64,000 bases of DNA, from positions 640,001 through 704,000 of the forward strand of contig OZ241996.1 in NCBI GenBank assembly GCA_965204535.1, written 5' to 3'. Position numbers and translations under genes: made by a program. Positions 29,176 through 36,303 of the stretch are shown here, in pieces. Each line of letters begins with the position of its first letter. Position 1 is the stretch's first letter. The notes under the pieces are model-generated. The model worked only from the letters and a program-made list of their open reading frames with translations, had not been told where the DNA came from and made no database searches. Source of the DNA: a bacterium (GTDB lineage Bacteria > UBA8248).

Positions 29176-29859
29176 ATGGCGGATGCGGCGGTTGTCGAGA
29201 TTTTCCACGAATACCACTGACCCTGGGCGTATATGGCCGCGGCGCGGCTGGACAAGGTGATGCCCGAGTTCGAAGGCAGGCTGCATCTCAAGTGGCGCGC
29301 ATTTCCCCTGGAAATCATCAACGACCGCCCTGCGCCGCGCCACATCGTGGATCAGGAATGGCCCCTGATAGCCGTTCAGGAGCCGCTCTCGCCGTGCAGA
29401 AGCTGGCCGCACGAGGAATATCTGCGCACCACGCTGCGCGCCTATCAGGCCTATGCGAGCGCCTATTCGCAGGACCCCGAAAAAGCGCGCGTCTACGACC
29501 TCAAGATCAGGCGCGGCTTTTTCTACGAGGGCAGGCGCGTGGATGAGAACGCGGTTTTATGCGAGATGGCGGAAGAGGCGGGTCTCGACGCCTCGAAAGT
29601 GCGCGCGGACTTGGAATCCGCCGTGTATGAGGCGGGCGTCATGGACGACTATCGGGAGGCCATGCGTCTGAGGGATGAAGAGGGCATGCCGATGACGAGC
29701 CCCACCCTCATCTTCCCGAGCGGGGAGGCCGTCTTCAACCCCTACGCTTCCGATAAGACGATTGAGGGCGGCAAACTCACCGAAGTGCACGCCCCGCCCG
29801 CCTACGGGGAGGCGGTGTATGCGGGTTACCGCGAGATTCTGGCAAGAGCGGCGGGGTGA
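29176..29859 (+). CDS. selenocysteine-containing DsbA/FrnE-family protein (UPWA)
   Basis: ATG at 29176 reads MADAAVVEIFHEYH-TGA(29218-29220)-PWAYM, in frame with ORF 29233..29859; WRAFPL and cis-Pro TSPT motifs. Confidence 0.8.
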
Positions 29860-29980
29860 TTTGGGAGCGCGCCTGAACCCTCGTCCGAAGTAAGTTCTAG
29901 CGCTATCCCAACAGGGTTGGTCCACTCGGATGAATAGGGAATAGGCGCGGCACATCCATGACGGTGTGCCGAATTGCTAA

Positions 29981-30102
29981 ATTGACCGGCAGTCTATTAA
30001 CACTTTCACCGTGTTTATAATATCACTTTCACCATATTTGTATTGACAATTTCACCGAATCTGTAATATAAATTTCACCACATTTGTATTGGTAATTTCA
30101 CC
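29981..30102 (+). repeat. 23-bp-period tandem array with TTTCACC core
   Basis: TTTCACC at 30004, 30027, 30050, 30073, 30096 and ATTGACC at 29981. Confidence 0.9.
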
Positions 30103-30121
30103 AGTTTCGTAGATGCGTTAA

Positions 30122-31408
30122 ATGCATGAGGACAGAATGATCCTGCCACGCCACCTGAGCGCCGAATTGCTGGACGCGCTGCGCTATTCACGTGTGATCA
30201 ACATCGTGGGGGCTCGTCAGGTGGGCAAGACAACGCTCGTTCGGGACATTCTCCAGAATGGAAGATTCATCACGCTCGACGATGATGCGTTGTTGGAAGC
30301 AATCGAAGACGACCCATGGGGGCAGTTGCAGCGGCTCGTCGGTGAGCTGAAAGATGGGCCGCTGGTAATCGACGAAGCGCAACGCTCCGGGAAGCTGTCG
30401 CTGGCGATCAAGAGGATTGTCGATCTCGGTAATCAAAAGGGGCAGTTTGTTCTCACGGGCTCCTCCAACATTTTCACAACGCTGCATGTGGCCGACTCGC
30501 TTGCCGGCCGCATGTTGACGCTGAAGTTGTGGCCGATGACCGTGGCCGAAACGATGTCGCGTGGCCCGTCGAAGATACTTGATTGGGCGATCTCCAAATC
30601 GCCGAACTTGAACGATCTGCCGGCGCCGGAAACCGCAACGAGGGCGGACTATATCGATCTCGTCCTGAGAGGAGGGTTTCCCGGGATCCGGGAGCTCGAT
30701 AACAGGAGGCGGCAGAAGGTCTATCGCGATTACGTTGATACGGTGGTGGATCGCGATGTTTCCGATATTGTCCGTATCCGAAAAAGCGACGCCCTGCGGC
30801 GTTTGCTTGATCAATTGGCCATTCGTACAGGTTCCGAACTCAACATCTCGTTGCTTTGCAAACTTATCGGTGTGCAACGGAATACTATCGAACAGTACCT
30901 TGATGTGCTGATACGGCTTTCGCTGGTCATCAAACTGGGTGCTTGGACATCTGGAGAAGCCCGCCGCGAGATTAAGAACGCAAAGCATCATTTCGCCGAT
31001 ACAGGGATAGCGGCGGCGCTACGAAACTTGACGCCGCGATCATTCGATCCCGATGCCGACCCCAAGGCACTTGGTGGATTGCTCGAGAGCTTTGTTGTTT
31101 CTGAACTCTTGCGTTCCGCGCCTTACCAGAATAACGGTTTTCGTTTCTATCACTGGCGCGACCAACGGGGGCGGGAGATCGATATTCTTGCGGAGAGCGC
31201 AAACGATGTGGCGGCCATTGAGGTAAAAGCGTCCTCCTCGGTGAGCCGTCAAGATTTCAGGCATTTGGAATGGTTTGCCGGCAAAGGTCCGGGAAAGACC
31301 CGGAAAGTGACCTCGATCGTTTTCTATTTCGGTGAAGAGAAGCTGGGATTCGGCGAACGTCGATATGCATTGCCGGTGAGTTGCTTGTGGGGAGCAACGC
31401 GGAAATGA
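30122..31408 (+). CDS. AAA_14 ATPase with DUF4143 (wHTH plus PD-(D/E)xK-like) C-terminus
   Basis: GARQVGKT, IDEAQ, LTGSS, LAGR, GGFP, DTG, YHWRD...EIDIL...IEVK. Confidence 0.9.
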   Translation: MHEDRMILPRHLSAELLDALRYSRVINIVGARQVGKTTLVRDILQNGRFITLDDDALLEAIEDDPWGQLQRLVGELKDGPLVIDEAQRSGKLSLAIKRIVDLGNQKGQFVLTGSSNIFTTLHVADSLAGRMLTLKLWPMTVAETMSRGPSKILDWAISKSPNLNDLPAPETATRADYIDLVLRGGFPGIRELDNRRRQKVYRDYVDTVVDRDVSDIVRIRKSDALRRLLDQLAIRTGSELNISLLCKLIGVQRNTIEQYLDVLIRLSLVIKLGAWTSGEARREIKNAKHHFADTGIAAALRNLTPRSFDPDADPKALGGLLESFVVSELLRSAPYQNNGFRFYHWRDQRGREIDILAESANDVAAIEVKASSSVSRQDFRHLEWFAGKGPGKTRKVTSIVFYFGEEKLGFGERRYALPVSCLWGATRK

Positions 31409-31483
31409 AACATTCGTTTCGAGGCATCTGGCGTATGCGTTGCCCTAGGTAGATGGCTTGAAAATACATCGATGAGGAGAGAC

Positions 31484-33490: not shown

Positions 33491-33808
33491 TCAAGACGCC
33501 GTGGAGATGGCTCCGACCTCGTTATCCACGATGACGGGCGAGGTGAAGTATTCGATCTCAGGCTCTACGCCGAGGCGCTCGCGTATCCCGGCGCGCCAGG
33601 CGTCGTCGTAGAGCCGCTCGGCGTCTTCGCGCGACTCGAACAGATAGACCCCGCCGCCTGTGCGCACGTCGTCCGACACCAGATAGTATTTGCGTACCAG
33701 ACCCGGCACGTCACGGTAGAGAGGGGCCGAGTGCTCGAAGGCCGCGGCCATCTCCTCTTGGGTCTTTCCCTCGGGAAGCGTGAAGCGAACGATTGCGGTG
33801 ACTGCCAT
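33491..33808 (-). CDS. YdhR-like dimeric alpha/beta-barrel putative monooxygenase, copy 2
   Basis: YRDVPGLVRKYYL, GGGVYLFES, PVIVDN. Confidence 0.82.
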   Translation of the reverse strand: MAVTAIVRFTLPEGKTQEEMAAAFEHSAPLYRDVPGLVRKYYLVSDDVRTGGGVYLFESREDAERLYDDAWRAGIRERLGVEPEIEYFTSPVIVDNEVGAISTAS

Positions 33809-33820
33809 GAAGCGTCCTCC

Positions 33821-34135
33821 TTATGCCGTGGAAGCGGCCTTGGCTTCGTTGTCGACGATGACGGGCGAGTCGAAGTACTGGACGTCGGGCTCGACCCCCA
33901 TGCGCTCGCGCAGCCTGGCGCGCCAGACCTCGTCGTGGACCCGCTCGGCGTCTTCGCGCGACTCGAAGATATAGACCCCGCCGCCTGTCCGCCGGTCTTC
34001 GGACAGCAGATAGTATTTGCGCAAGAGGCCGGGTACGTCGCGGTAGAGAGCCGTCGAACTCTCGAAACCGGCAACCAGCTCCTCCTCGGTCTTTCCTTCG
34101 GGAAGCGCGAAATTGACAACTGCGGTAACGGCCAT
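33821..34135 (-). CDS. YdhR-like putative monooxygenase, copy 1
   Basis: tandem paralogue of 33491..33808. Confidence 0.82.
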   Translation of the reverse strand: MAVTAVVNFALPEGKTEEELVAGFESSTALYRDVPGLLRKYYLLSEDRRTGGGVYIFESREDAERVHDEVWRARLRERMGVEPDVQYFDSPVIVDNEAKAASTA

Positions 34136-34284
34136 GAAAGGTCCTCCTTGTGTGGTGGATTCGCTTTGAATTATAGCATGAAACGGGAGATGGGATTTGC
34201 GTAGGTACCACGGGTTTTATCTGTCCGTCTTCGTTCTCTCTAGCTCAATTGGCACGCTCTGAGTTTTGTAGCGTTAAGAAGTGA

Positions 34285-34881
34285 TTAGTTCGACGTATTT
34301 GGATCTGTCGCAGCACGTCTGGAATCCAACTCAGAAATTCGGCTAAATTCAATTTCAAAGAACTCAACAATGTCCCATTTTCCGAAGGTAAGGTTTCTCT
34401 CCGGTAGTTTGTATTCCTTGCGAATACGCTGTGCGAGTTGGATTGCACGCACTCCCATTTTGACTGTATTTTCTGAGGCAGCATTGCGCACGCAATCAAT
34501 GTCAGCGATGACATCCCACCAAAATGCAGGCTCCCGGTCAGCCATTTGGCACCGTTGCGGAAAGTCAAGAATCGCTTCCAAGATTTCGGATTTCATGAGT
34601 GCATAGTCGAGACTGTCAGGAAATGACGGAGGTTGCGGTACATTGCTCATATATTTGCCAGCTTGACCGTCATGATCCATAGCCAGCTTGTGGTCACTTA
34701 GCTTCTCGCCACATTCAATCGCGTATCCTTCGAGGGAAAATACTATCCTAAGAGCCAAGTGGCGAATGCGATCTTTTCTGGAACGCCTGTGTCTCCAGTG
34801 TTCTAGTCCCAATGACACAAGAGCTACGCTAGCACCACTTGCCAGGATAGTAGGCAAATGAGTAGTAAGCGTATCCATCAT
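34285..34881 (-). CDS. hypothetical protein with N-terminal TM helix, AT-rich
   Basis: 198-aa ORF, RBS GGAG, hydrophobic N-terminus followed by a basic patch. Confidence 0.65.
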   Translation of the reverse strand: MMDTLTTHLPTILASGASVALVSLGLEHWRHRRSRKDRIRHLALRIVFSLEGYAIECGEKLSDHKLAMDHDGQAGKYMSNVPQPPSFPDSLDYALMKSEILEAILDFPQRCQMADREPAFWWDVIADIDCVRNAASENTVKMGVRAIQLAQRIRKEYKLPERNLTFGKWDIVEFFEIEFSRISELDSRRAATDPNTSN

Positions 34882-35157
34882 GAGGTTTTATCTCCGTGCT
34901 AAAATTTCTGAAATTGTCGATGCCGGGATACATACCGCTCCATATCGCAAAGAATTCGGTCTGAATGATAGCATTAAACAGAGAAGAGAAAGCGTGGAAG
35001 AATGGTTAGTTATTTTCACGCCAATGAAAGCACTGCAGAAACTATAATTGAGAATTGTCCAGAAAGGTAATTACTGTCTCATGTAACATCATATTGCTGA
35101 GACCACAGTTAGCATTGCAATAGTATAGAAGAATCGGGCTTCAAGACAGGATTAAAT

Positions 35158-36303
35158 TTAGAATATGTTTGTCGAGTAGTCATCATCGTACACATCGTCA
35201 CTATAGTCGATATCTACAAAGTCGAAATCTACTGTGTCAATCGTTTCGGCCAATTCCAGGCCCGATAATGTAATTTCTATCGGAGCGGAGGAGAAATTTC
35301 CCTCGAATGAGAAAAGAACTGAAGCATCGAATTCCACCTCAGTTTCTGCATTTGTGCTACCGATTGGGAAGTAATCTTTGTCAATGGGATCCTTGGTCGA
35401 AAAGGTAAATTGGCACTCGGCTTTGGCTTGGATATTAACTCCAACTTGGGCAACGATTTTGCCATTCCCGATTTGCACTACTGTGAAATCGAACCCATCT
35501 TCAGATTTGATAAATTGAAAATCCTCAAGATATAGGAATACCCAGTCCGCTTCATAGCGGTATGCAGAACTTGCTTCAGGATAAACATTCATTTCGTTAA
35601 CTGCATCGCTCATGGCATTGGTAACTTGTTCGAGCAGAGCGGGTCGGTTGTCTTGACCCATATCCGATAACAACATAGCTATAATCTTCATAGCTTCTTC
35701 TGTGTGCTGTTGCAGTATCTGAAGAGCCTTTGCGAGATCTTCTTCAATATCGAGCCACTTTGAACTTTTCGCAAAATCGACCCATCCAGTATCCTTGGAA
35801 ATGGCCAATATCTTTTTTTGCTCTGATTCCGCGAACTTCTCCAAGGATAGAAGGGCGATGGCATCTGGAAATTCATTCTTTTTATTGCCTGATGTTTCGA
35901 AAGGGGCGGAAGGCTTAAAATAACGTAGAATAAGTTCCTTTACGTCAGCATTTTCTGCTGGTATCCATCTCATACCTGTCATGTCAGCAAATGTTTGAAG
36001 ACGTTGTTTCGCAGCATTATCAGCCGTGAGAGCCTTTTTGAATAAACCGTCTAACTGTTCTGAGATTTCTTGGGTGAACAAACCATTCTTGCGCGATTCC
36101 CGACTTGCTTTCTTGATCGCCTCTTGAGCTTTTTGGGCTTCAATCTTGAGGTATTTGTGAATTTCTCTGACAACAATTTCAGATAGTACGAATTCGACTG
36201 AGCCTTCCTTAAATTGTGTCAATTGCCCTAAAATACCCCCTTCAAGATTCCATCCCTTGTTCCGAAATATATTGGTGTCAAGGGTAATTGCGTCGTATTT
36301 CAT
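35158..36303 (-). CDS. PIN-domain protein (PIN_12/DUF4935-like), AT-rich
   Basis: TLDTNIF, EIVVRE, KKNEFPDA, SKDTGW acidic PIN tetrad; acidic C-terminal domain. Confidence 0.8.
   Translation of the reverse strand: MKYDAITLDTNIFRNKGWNLEGGILGQLTQFKEGSVEFVLSEIVVREIHKYLKIEAQKAQEAIKKASRESRKNGLFTQEISEQLDGLFKKALTADNAAKQRLQTFADMTGMRWIPAENADVKELILRYFKPSAPFETSGNKKNEFPDAIALLSLEKFAESEQKKILAISKDTGWVDFAKSSKWLDIEEDLAKALQILQQHTEEAMKIIAMLLSDMGQDNRPALLEQVTNAMSDAVNEMNVYPEASSAYRYEADWVFLYLEDFQFIKSEDGFDFTVVQIGNGKIVAQVGVNIQAKAECQFTFSTKDPIDKDYFPIGSTNAETEVEFDASVLFSFEGNFSSAPIEITLSGLELAETIDTVDFDFVDIDYSDDVYDDDYSTNIF

What the first reader, a model, noticed from the sequence alone, without database searches (positions are those of the whole stretch)
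29981..30102. Exact 23-bp-period array with alternating A/B units upstream of the AAA-DUF4143 gene
Seen units: attgaccggcagtcTATTaacac / tttcaccgtgtttaTAATATcac / tttcaccatatttgTATTgacaa / tttcaccgaatctgTAATATaaa / tttcaccacatttgTATTggtaa / tttcacc. The core is fixed, the middle ~7 nt vary, and alternate units share TATT or TAATAT, giving a 46-bp higher-order repeat. The array is AT-rich in a GC-rich context, contains TTGACA (30043), and ends 20 bp before the ATG. Inference: iteron-like binding sites for the wHTH of the adjacent oligomeric ATPase (autoregulation or a loading platform), or a small repeat RNA acting like a type III antitoxin for the nuclease-like domain.
Basis: partly seen in the sequence, partly recalled or inferred. 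Interest (0 to 1): 0.72.

Follow-up and report, generated by a model that had tools for sequence, protein, structure and literature searches.

The report
Promoter-operator repeats of candidate defence nuclease
Five head-to-tail 23-base DNA repeats sit in front of a very common but unproven anti-phage ATPase-nuclease gene and accompany its relatives across several bacterial phyla; they are likely binding sites through which the protein represses its own gene, and their alternation likely comes from the two promoter boxes being written into neighbouring repeats.

Summary
The array is real: five 23-bp units (29995-30109) plus one decayed unit, GC 29% against 61% upstream, and the only TTTCACC array at 23-bp spacing in the 4.56-Mb genome. 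The gene is an AAA_14-wHTH-DUF4143 protein (PADLOC candidate PDC-S01) with intact catalytic residues. A 23-bp array lies upstream of 40 of 42 homologues at 42% identity or more (coding control 1 of 42). Array and gene form one 1.6-kb insertion, missing from ten relatives. The A/B alternation matches a sigma70 promoter: TTGACA in unit A, TATAAN 18 bp later in unit B, in that order in 8 of 11 arrays (null 3.1). Relatives carry 3, 5 or 7 units (46-bp steps). Base 5 of the unit tracks residue 249 of the predicted recognition helix (Glu with G, Lys with C), moderate evidence that the protein reads the array. Best reading: a tandem self-operator over the promoter (binding and repression inferred, untested). 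A type III-like repeat RNA is not supported: no terminator, no consistent fold. I found no paper on these arrays. This scan noted the same phenomenon before on other genomes (at least eight notes).

The parts
29972..29994 (+). Unit 0, decayed repeat (core ATTGACC at 29981)
   Evidence: in 23-bp phase; decayed unit also seen in L001, L002, L005, L007
29995..30017 (+). Unit 1, A-type (TTAACA at 29997, 5/6 to -35 consensus); extra copy absent from 3-unit relatives
30018..30040 (+). Unit 2, B-type, weakened -10-like TATCAC at 30021; extra copy absent from 3-unit relatives
30041..30063 (+). Unit 3, A-type, carries TTGACA (30043-30048), predicted -35 box
30064..30086 (+). Unit 4, B-type, carries TATAAA (30067-30072), predicted -10 box 18 bp after TTGACA; predicted start of transcription near 30078-30080, inside the TTTCACC core (inferred)
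   Evidence: one search did not call it (its rule needs T at the last -10 position)
30087..30109 (+). Unit 5, predicted operator downstream of the transcription start (TTGGTA in place of TTGACA)
30122..31408 (+). AAA_14 + wHTH + DUF4143 (PD-(D/E)XK) gene, PADLOC PDC-S01; start at 30122 or 30137
   Evidence: Pfam; PADLOC PDLC04790 E 5e-136; AF2 model; catalytic residues
30785..30991 (+). Predicted winged helix (residues 217-285 counted from ATG 30137); recognition helix starts Q247-R248-N249-T250; residue 249 is codon 30881-30883
   Evidence: three helices plus hairpin in the model; weak GntR HTH match E 0.0014, below cut-off
29894..31480 (+). Approximate extent of the inserted cassette (array + gene) between a DsbA-like gene (29233-29859) and an aldo-keto reductase gene (to 32299)
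   Evidence: empty sites in 6 of 10 relatives

Best explanation
The array is likely a tandem self-operator: one predicted winged-helix domain of the adjacent PDC-S01 ATPase-nuclease would bind each 23-bp unit and so would cover the gene's own predicted -35 box, -10 box and start site, keeping a likely toxic nuclease at a low level. Shown: the array, its fixed period and position in homologues, its travel with the gene as one cassette, promoter-consensus hexamers in A-then-B order, and copy-number steps of 46 bp. Inferred: that RNA polymerase uses TTGACA-18-TATAAA, that the protein binds, that binding represses, and that residue 249 reads base 5. The alternation arises because a 22-23-bp period equals the -35 to -10 distance, so one unit is bent toward TTGACA and the next toward TATAAT. 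Slippage or unequal crossing-over then pairs A with A and duplicates the pair (3, 5, 7 units). Paralogues would keep private motifs and so avoid repressing one another.
For: Array upstream of 40 of 42 homologues at 42% identity or more; controls 1 of 42 coding, 1 of 41 downstream, 9 of 126 shuffles, 0-3 of 42 at periods 20-22 and 24-26 (anchor chosen by eye from these loci). Anchor-free test: 34 of 42 against 1 of 42; at 28-42% identity 60 of 108 against 1 of 108, 58 of them at 22, 23, 44 or 46. TTGACA-18-TATAAN at 11 of 12 or better in 15 of 18 sequences of the window's motif group; A followed by B in 8 of 11 representative arrays, null 3.1, P 0.0004, kin not independent. In distant homologues, promoter pairs peak 6 nt before the start codon (13 of 91; no other gap above 2); 8 of 9 with period 22 have a 17-bp spacer and L181 (period 23) has 18, with -10 offset one base from -35 as in the window. 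Cassette missing in 10 relatives, 6 of them with a clean empty site; the two-unit pattern is in 0 of 4 gene-less genomes and only at the scar in G011. The motif changes with the protein clade. Residue 249 Glu: base 5 is G in 34 of 35 units; Lys: C in 11 of 15; other residues: G 13 of 69, C 4 of 69 (found after looking). New loci after the prediction was noted: Glu 6 of 6 G in L216 and L110; non-Glu 3 of 23. In independent pairs, all 4 Glu or Lys versus other contrasts go the predicted way, one Lys contrast weakly. Precedent: AbiEi, a wHTH protein, binds two 23-bp sites covering -35, -10 and +1 and represses its operon (PMC3985639, passages).
Against: No binding or transcript data. The promoter scan called 0 sites; TATAAA lacks the last T, and L011 has no B unit. 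Residue 249 varies (N, H, S, R, P, D, G) while the TTTCACC core stays fixed. The windows that best track the core are 220, 343, 217, 226 and 142, not the recognition helix, and may mark one clade switch. The 249/base-5 pair ranks 7th of 3230 column-by-base tests and 2nd of 190 for base 5, among hits that look like noise. Holdout L215 (Glu) gave 0 of 3 G in the automatic register (2 of 3 after a one-base shift); L214 (Val) gave 3 of 4 G; L079 (Gln) has G in 4 of 5; no Lys holdout was found; the two clean Glu holdouts are kin of training clades. An array survives in G011 without the gene.
Confidence: 0.68

Rival explanations
1. The protein binds the array, but mainly as a scaffold: the array assembles or tethers an ATPase filament and holds the nuclease inactive (a DNA antitoxin or sensor), releasing or activating it when the locus is damaged or phage DNA competes. 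Repression would be a by-product.
For: The period is exact even in units without promoter boxes, up to 7-8 units (L080, L013, L002). The model resembles STAND/NB-ARC and Orc1-type ATPases, which oligomerise (own knowledge). Nuclease residues are intact in 40 of 42.
Against: Arrays lie directly upstream of the gene and, in the window's motif group, on the promoter; many have only 2-3 units. Extra units are explained by 46-bp duplication. No second copy of the array in the genome.
Confidence: 0.14
2. The array is a promoter duplicated in tandem, or a site for a host regulator, and is not bound by this protein.
For: A-B pairs are promoter modules and duplicate as such. An array persists in G011 where the gene is gone and may now drive the reductase gene. 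The co-variation scan is not decisive.
Against: Units without promoter boxes keep the motif and phase (L013, L014, L201, L080). One motif is shared by hosts of Nitrospinota, Acidobacteriota, Binatota and Pseudomonadota and follows the protein tree, not the host. A paralogue in the same genome has another motif.
Confidence: 0.11
3. The array is transcribed into a small repeat RNA that neutralises or guides the nuclease, like a type III antitoxin.
For: Repeats lie upstream of a nuclease gene; units 1-2 could act as an upstream promoter reading through units 3-5 (inferred). 5 of 36 arrays fold with z below -2 on the sense strand.
Against: No terminator between array and gene in the window; 1 of 36 homologues has one. 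Mean folding z is -0.21 sense and -0.49 antisense, with 5 of 36 below -2 on each strand. Window z is -0.98 and +0.09. No Rfam match near a gathering score. The predicted promoter lies inside the array, so in 2-3-unit arrays almost nothing is transcribed.
Confidence: 0.04
4. The array is an iteron-type origin or a recombination end used by the gene to replicate or move itself.
For: AAA+ plus wHTH resembles Orc1/Cdc6 (2v1u, E 2.9e-6). The gene is patchy (7 of 22 same-genus genomes) and inserted.
Against: No target duplication or inverted ends seen at the junctions; other genes use the same site (L224). No array at the 3' end. Up to 22 DUF4143 matches in one genome, G065. Neighbours vary. 1 relative found in viral contigs.
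Confidence: 0.03

Closest known systems
PDC-S01 (PADLOC phage defence candidate; COG1373; Pfam AAA_14 PF13173 + DUF4143 PF13635)
   Same: The gene is a member (E 5e-136). PMC12988326 (passages) calls it the fourth most common defence across prokaryotes, an ATPase fused to a PD-(D/E)XK domain, with validation pending for most PDCs.
   Different: None of the passages I read mentions an upstream array, promoter or DNA target. One representative tested in E. coli B against T7, T5 and T4 was not among the four protective systems (10.1101/2024.09.26.614923, passages).
AbiE antitoxin AbiEi and its promoter (PMC3985639, passages)
   Same: wHTH protein of a defence locus, 23-bp sites covering -35, -10 and +1, one monomer proposed per site, negative autoregulation.
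   Different: AbiEi sites are two inverted repeats and AbiEi is a separate antitoxin. Here 2-8 direct repeats would be bound by the ATPase-nuclease itself; binding is untested.
Plasmid iterons and Rep autorepression (P1 RepA, R6K pi, F RepE; recalled, no call)
   Same: Fixed-period direct repeats of about two helical turns next to the gene of a winged-helix protein, overlapping its promoter.
   Different: No sign of a replicon: solo gene inserted between housekeeping genes, many paralogues per genome, nuclease domain fused.
Archaeal ATPases PAB2304 (2qen) and SSO1545 (2fna); Orc1/Cdc6 on origin boxes (2v1u)
   Same: Best structural matches over ATPase plus wHTH: Z 14.2 (rmsd 5.4, 252 aligned) and 13.5 (rmsd 4.8, 248 aligned); Foldseek E 4e-8, 4e-6 and 3e-6.
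   Different: 16-18% identity; a shared fold shows no function. No close relative has a solved structure.
Type III toxin-antitoxin loci (ToxIN, TenpIN, CptIN; PMC5086642, passages)
   Same: Short repeats upstream of a nuclease gene.
   Different: Type III needs a promoter upstream of the repeats, a Rho-independent terminator before the toxin gene and an endoribonuclease toxin. Here there is no terminator, the promoter is inside the repeats and the nuclease is of the PD-(D/E)XK type.

Membership tests
PDC-S01 / COG1373 | AAA_14 + DUF4143 single gene matching PADLOC PDC-S01 models | tested here: met
PDC-S01 / COG1373 | Walker A/B and PD-(D/E)XK catalytic residues intact | tested here: met
   K31, D79, E80; E317, E347, D349, E362, K364 in the window and in 40 of 42 homologues; roles assigned from own knowledge of the motifs
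PDC-S01 / COG1373 | Anti-phage activity | not testable with these tools
   one published test of another member showed no protection against three phages
Autoregulatory operator array (AbiEi-like, Rep-like) | Repeats overlap the gene's -35/-10 boxes | tested here: met
   by consensus only; one search did not call the site; no 5' mapping
Autoregulatory operator array (AbiEi-like, Rep-like) | Adjacent protein has a DNA-binding HTH | tested here: met
   model; structural matches spanning the domain; weak GntR match below cut-off
Autoregulatory operator array (AbiEi-like, Rep-like) | Motif co-varies with the recognition helix | tested here: inconclusive
   supportive counts but rank 7 of 3230 in the blind scan and core not tracked by the helix
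Autoregulatory operator array (AbiEi-like, Rep-like) | Direct binding and repression | not testable with these tools
   needs EMSA, footprint and reporter
Type III toxin-antitoxin | Rho-independent terminator between repeats and toxin gene | tested here: not met
   0 in the window; 1 of 36 homologues
Type III toxin-antitoxin | Promoter upstream of the repeats, repeats transcribed as structured RNA | tested here: not met
   best promoter is inside the array; folding z near 0; pseudoknots were not modelled
Type III toxin-antitoxin | ToxN/TenpN/CptN-type endoribonuclease | tested here: not met
   Pfam gives AAA_14, DUF4143 and AAA_22 only
CRISPR or CRISPR-like mini-array | Constant repeats with unique spacers of about 20-40 nt (recalled) | tested here: not met
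   variable part is 7 nt, of which about 3 are free; no Rfam match
Iteron replication origin | Rep gene plus origin on an autonomous replicon | tested here: inconclusive
   chromosomal insertion between housekeeping genes; replication not testable here

The most novel reading that the evidence does not exclude
PDC-S01 proteins are sequence-specific, filament-forming ATPase-nucleases whose cognate DNA array is both operator and off-switch: a DNA antitoxin with a simple readable code (residue 249 to base 5). The nuclease would be released when phage degrades or outcompetes the host array.
Probability: 0.12. Interest if true: 0.82.

Novelty: new variant of a known kind. Interest (0 to 1): 0.55.

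Why it matters
PDC-S01 is reported as the fourth most common defence candidate in prokaryotes, yet in the papers I searched it has no demonstrated activity, substrate or structure. A cognate DNA site predicted from sequence gives a ligand for binding assays and structure work, a regulatory model, and a residue-base swap that can be tested at once. It also suggests why a heterologous test could fail or mislead: the outcome may depend on whether the native array was cloned with the gene (inference; I could not see the cloning details). Autorepression at a defence-gene promoter is a known principle, so the surprise is moderate. New here are the explanation of the A/B alternation as -35/-10 boxes, the 46-bp copy steps, the empty and scarred sites and the candidate recognition code.

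Tried and rejected
RNA evidence: no RNA holder listed, which is no evidence either way; four runs were laid, all contigs, with no 46-bp indel listed in them. Homodimer prediction: no verdict, score 0.00, not used. Single-sequence wHTH model: pLDDT 58, discarded. PDB sequence searches: nothing close. NCBIfam: no family. Rfam: 3 matches with E 1.5-4, far below gathering scores. Phage decoy copies: an exact two-unit pattern found 0 stretches in viral contigs. Searches for new holdout homologues were mostly empty: 0 new in 91 and in 17 genomes, 2 new in 401, 0 new in 251 and in 201. Alternative -10 register (TAWTAT, 15-bp spacer): kept as possible but disfavoured by the geometry in 22-bp relatives. 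Registering 22-bp subfamilies on the -35 box did not extend the Lys-C rule (L129, L152, L188 have A; read by eye). L153 was left out of the spacer count because the locus holds two family genes. No published start-site map for the NGR234 homologue turned up. Peptide-coding repeats were rejected because 23 is not a multiple of 3. Not-in-print claim rests on full-text searches for DUF4143 (4 papers), PDC-S01 (7), COG1373 (8), AAA_14 with direct repeats, promoter, autoregulation and defense (no AAA_14 hit among the 25 listed of 65) and recalled mycobacterial locus tags (20 listed of 180). Most were seen as listings only, and subscription journals are not covered.

Full report
Observation. The array is in the sequence as described. 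TRF gives period 23 (30004-30102) and period 46. Written from the conserved TA-n-T anchor there are five full units from 29995 to 30109 and one decayed unit at 29972. GC is 0.29 against 0.61 upstream. The four pairs of TTTCACC at 23-bp distance in the whole genome are all here, against 0.1 expected. Two public runs contain the stretch unchanged in one contig and may be its source. The 46-bp order is modest in the window (lag 1: 16-18 of 23; lag 2: 16-20) and rests on TATT versus TAATAT.

The gene. ORF 30122/30137-31408 is AAA_14 + DUF4143 and PADLOC candidate PDC-S01 (E 5e-136). The AF2 model (pLDDT 84.8) shows an ATPase, a three-helix-plus-hairpin domain at about residues 217-285 and a C-terminal nuclease-type domain. 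The best structural matches are archaeal ATPases 2qen and 2fna, then STAND/NB-ARC, RuvB and Orc1. The middle domain has a weak GntR HTH match below cut-off. Nuclease residues are intact in 40 of 42 homologues. Close relatives are labelled Nitrospinota or Nitrospinaceae MAGs.

The array belongs to the gene. All 15 loci of the first scan (71-98% identity; Nitrospinota, Acidobacteriota, Binatia, Alpha- and Gammaproteobacteria) show the same motif upstream. I pooled loci. Of these, 180 distinct proteins had at least 120 nt upstream; 11 loci without a full gene and 7 with short upstream were dropped. Among the 42 at 42% identity or more, 40 score as 23-bp arrays, against 1 of 42 coding and 1 of 41 downstream controls, 9 of 126 shuffles and 0-3 of 42 at other periods (anchor chosen by eye from these loci). 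An anchor-free test gives 34 of 42 against 1 of 42; at 28-42% identity 60 of 108 against 1 of 108 (58 at 22, 23, 44 or 46); below 28%, 7 of 30, five at period 52. Of 10 further loci examined later, 9 reached the score. The gene is in 7 of 22 same-genus genomes. Of 10 genomes without it, 6 have the DsbA-like and reductase genes 13-37 bp apart, one (G011, L222) keeps a three-unit array with the gene gone, one has another gene at the site and two lack the reductase next door. The two-unit pattern is in none of 4 gene-less genomes and only at the scar in G011. A paralogue in the same genome has a different motif, shared with L034, L035 and L038-L041 at a 52-bp period.

Why A and B alternate. In the window's motif group, 15 of 18 sequences have TTGACA, 18 bp, TATAAN at 11 of 12 or better. 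A is directly followed by B in 8 of 11 representative arrays (null 3.1, P 0.0004; kin are not independent). L008, L011 and L201 are the exceptions. In distant homologues, promoter pairs peak sharply 6 nt before the start codon (13 of 91; no other distance above 2), which fits leaderless genes and fixes the register: -35 in one unit, -10 one base further in the next. Period 22 gives a 17-bp spacer in 8 of 9 cases and period 23 gives 18 in L181. The window has the same geometry: TTGACA 30043, TATAAA 30067. The tool's stricter scan called no promoter, and a 15-bp register is not excluded. Same-genus copies have 3, 5 or 7 full units and differ by whole A-B pairs, as expected if mispairing matches A with A (inference).

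Does the protein read it? The motif follows the protein tree: TTTCACC, TTTCGCAC, TGGTG and TTTTCC cores behind a shared TA-n-T. A sliding-window test did not place the core on the recognition helix (best windows 220, 343, 217, 226, 142); positions 4-8 were best tracked by residues 241-252 (partial r 0.31) (32 dereplicated proteins; three arrays re-registered by hand). Residue 249 tracks base 5: Glu with G 34 of 35, Lys with C 11 of 15, others G 13 of 69 and C 4 of 69 (8 near-duplicate loci dropped). On the bottom strand these are Glu-C and Lys-G, common protein-DNA contacts (own knowledge). I noted the rule before fetching new loci. Holdouts: L216 and L110 gave 6 of 6, L215 gave 0 of 3 (2 of 3 if shifted one base), non-Glu gave 3 of 23, and there was no Lys case. 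In 21 independent pairs, the four Glu or Lys versus other contrasts go the predicted way (one weakly, 2 of 5 units), and a Gln-Lys pair has G versus C. The pair ranks 7 of 3230 tests and 2 of 190 for base 5 (holdouts included, L215 shifted). This is moderate support, not proof.

RNA option. Type III loci need a terminator between repeats and toxin gene (PMC5086642, passages). There is none in the window and 1 in 36 homologues; mean folding z is -0.21 sense and -0.49 antisense; the window gives -0.98 and +0.09; Rfam gives nothing.

Mechanism. Most likely (0.68) the protein binds one unit per protomer, head to tail, over -35, -10 and +1 and represses its own gene, as AbiEi does on two inverted 23-bp sites (PMC3985639, passages). 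Rivals: scaffold or DNA off-switch (0.14), duplicated promoter or host-regulator site (0.11), repeat RNA (0.04), origin or mobility end (0.03). What the nuclease does is open. PDC systems were predicted by embedding and left untested (10.1101/2024.01.29.577857, passages; S01 is not named in its main text). One PDC-S01 tested was not among the protective ones (10.1101/2024.09.26.614923, passages). A Thermus member rose 6.6-fold with plasmid in an Argonaute-containing strain (PMC4406477, section 7). PMC3424549 lists the family's function as unknown (passage). PMC13356809 and 10.64898/2026.10.19.760177 (passages) add nothing on arrays.

Novelty. I found no paper describing these arrays (mostly listings; subscription journals and bioRxiv supplements not seen). 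The scan's own notes describe the same phenomenon on other genomes; none is a look-alike of this locus. I had stated the operator reading before seeing them, and they are not independent evidence. Verdict: real, family-wide, a new variant of a known kind of control; interest 0.55.

Noticed in passing
G000:C2:750671-751858 (-), outside the window; also L034, L035, L038-L041: A paralogue has its own AT-rich upstream element: two inverted repeats at a 52-bp period ending at the start codon, unlike the window's motif.
   Followed up: partly
G000:C2:2953476-2954714 (+), outside the window: A third family member lacks the Walker A start of the gene, and no array is visible in the 530 nt printed upstream.
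   Followed up: no
L222 / L229 (G011:C1:2085889-2085927): Scar: a three-unit array remains in front of the reductase gene with the ATPase gene gone; its third unit resembles those of L006 and L008.
   Followed up: partly
L224 (G020), just after the DsbA-like gene: A different 432-aa ORF occupies the same site, suggesting an insertion hotspot; its first 60 residues had no PADLOC match.
   Followed up: partly
window 34285-36303 (-): Low-GC pair 3 kb downstream: a PDC-S67 match (E 4.8e-21) and a PIN_12 protein, likely another defence-type insertion.
   Followed up: partly
window 33519-34149: Tandem 327-bp duplication giving two similar 104-105-aa genes.
   Followed up: no
window 32404, 53424, 53446, 57166, 57390, 58278, 58710: A recurring doubled 9-bp G/C-run element in both orientations, possibly a REP-like repeat.
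   Followed up: no
L202, L204, L214: On three Rhodobacterales plasmids the homologue follows an ScpB gene, twice with DUF1403 before it.
   Followed up: no
L083, L112, L128, L136, L155, L169, L188, L193, L198 and others: Many distant homologues look leaderless (-10 box 6 nt before the ATG), some with palindromic 22-bp units.
   Followed up: partly
G065: One genome has 22 DUF4143 matches, a natural test set for private operators.
   Followed up: no
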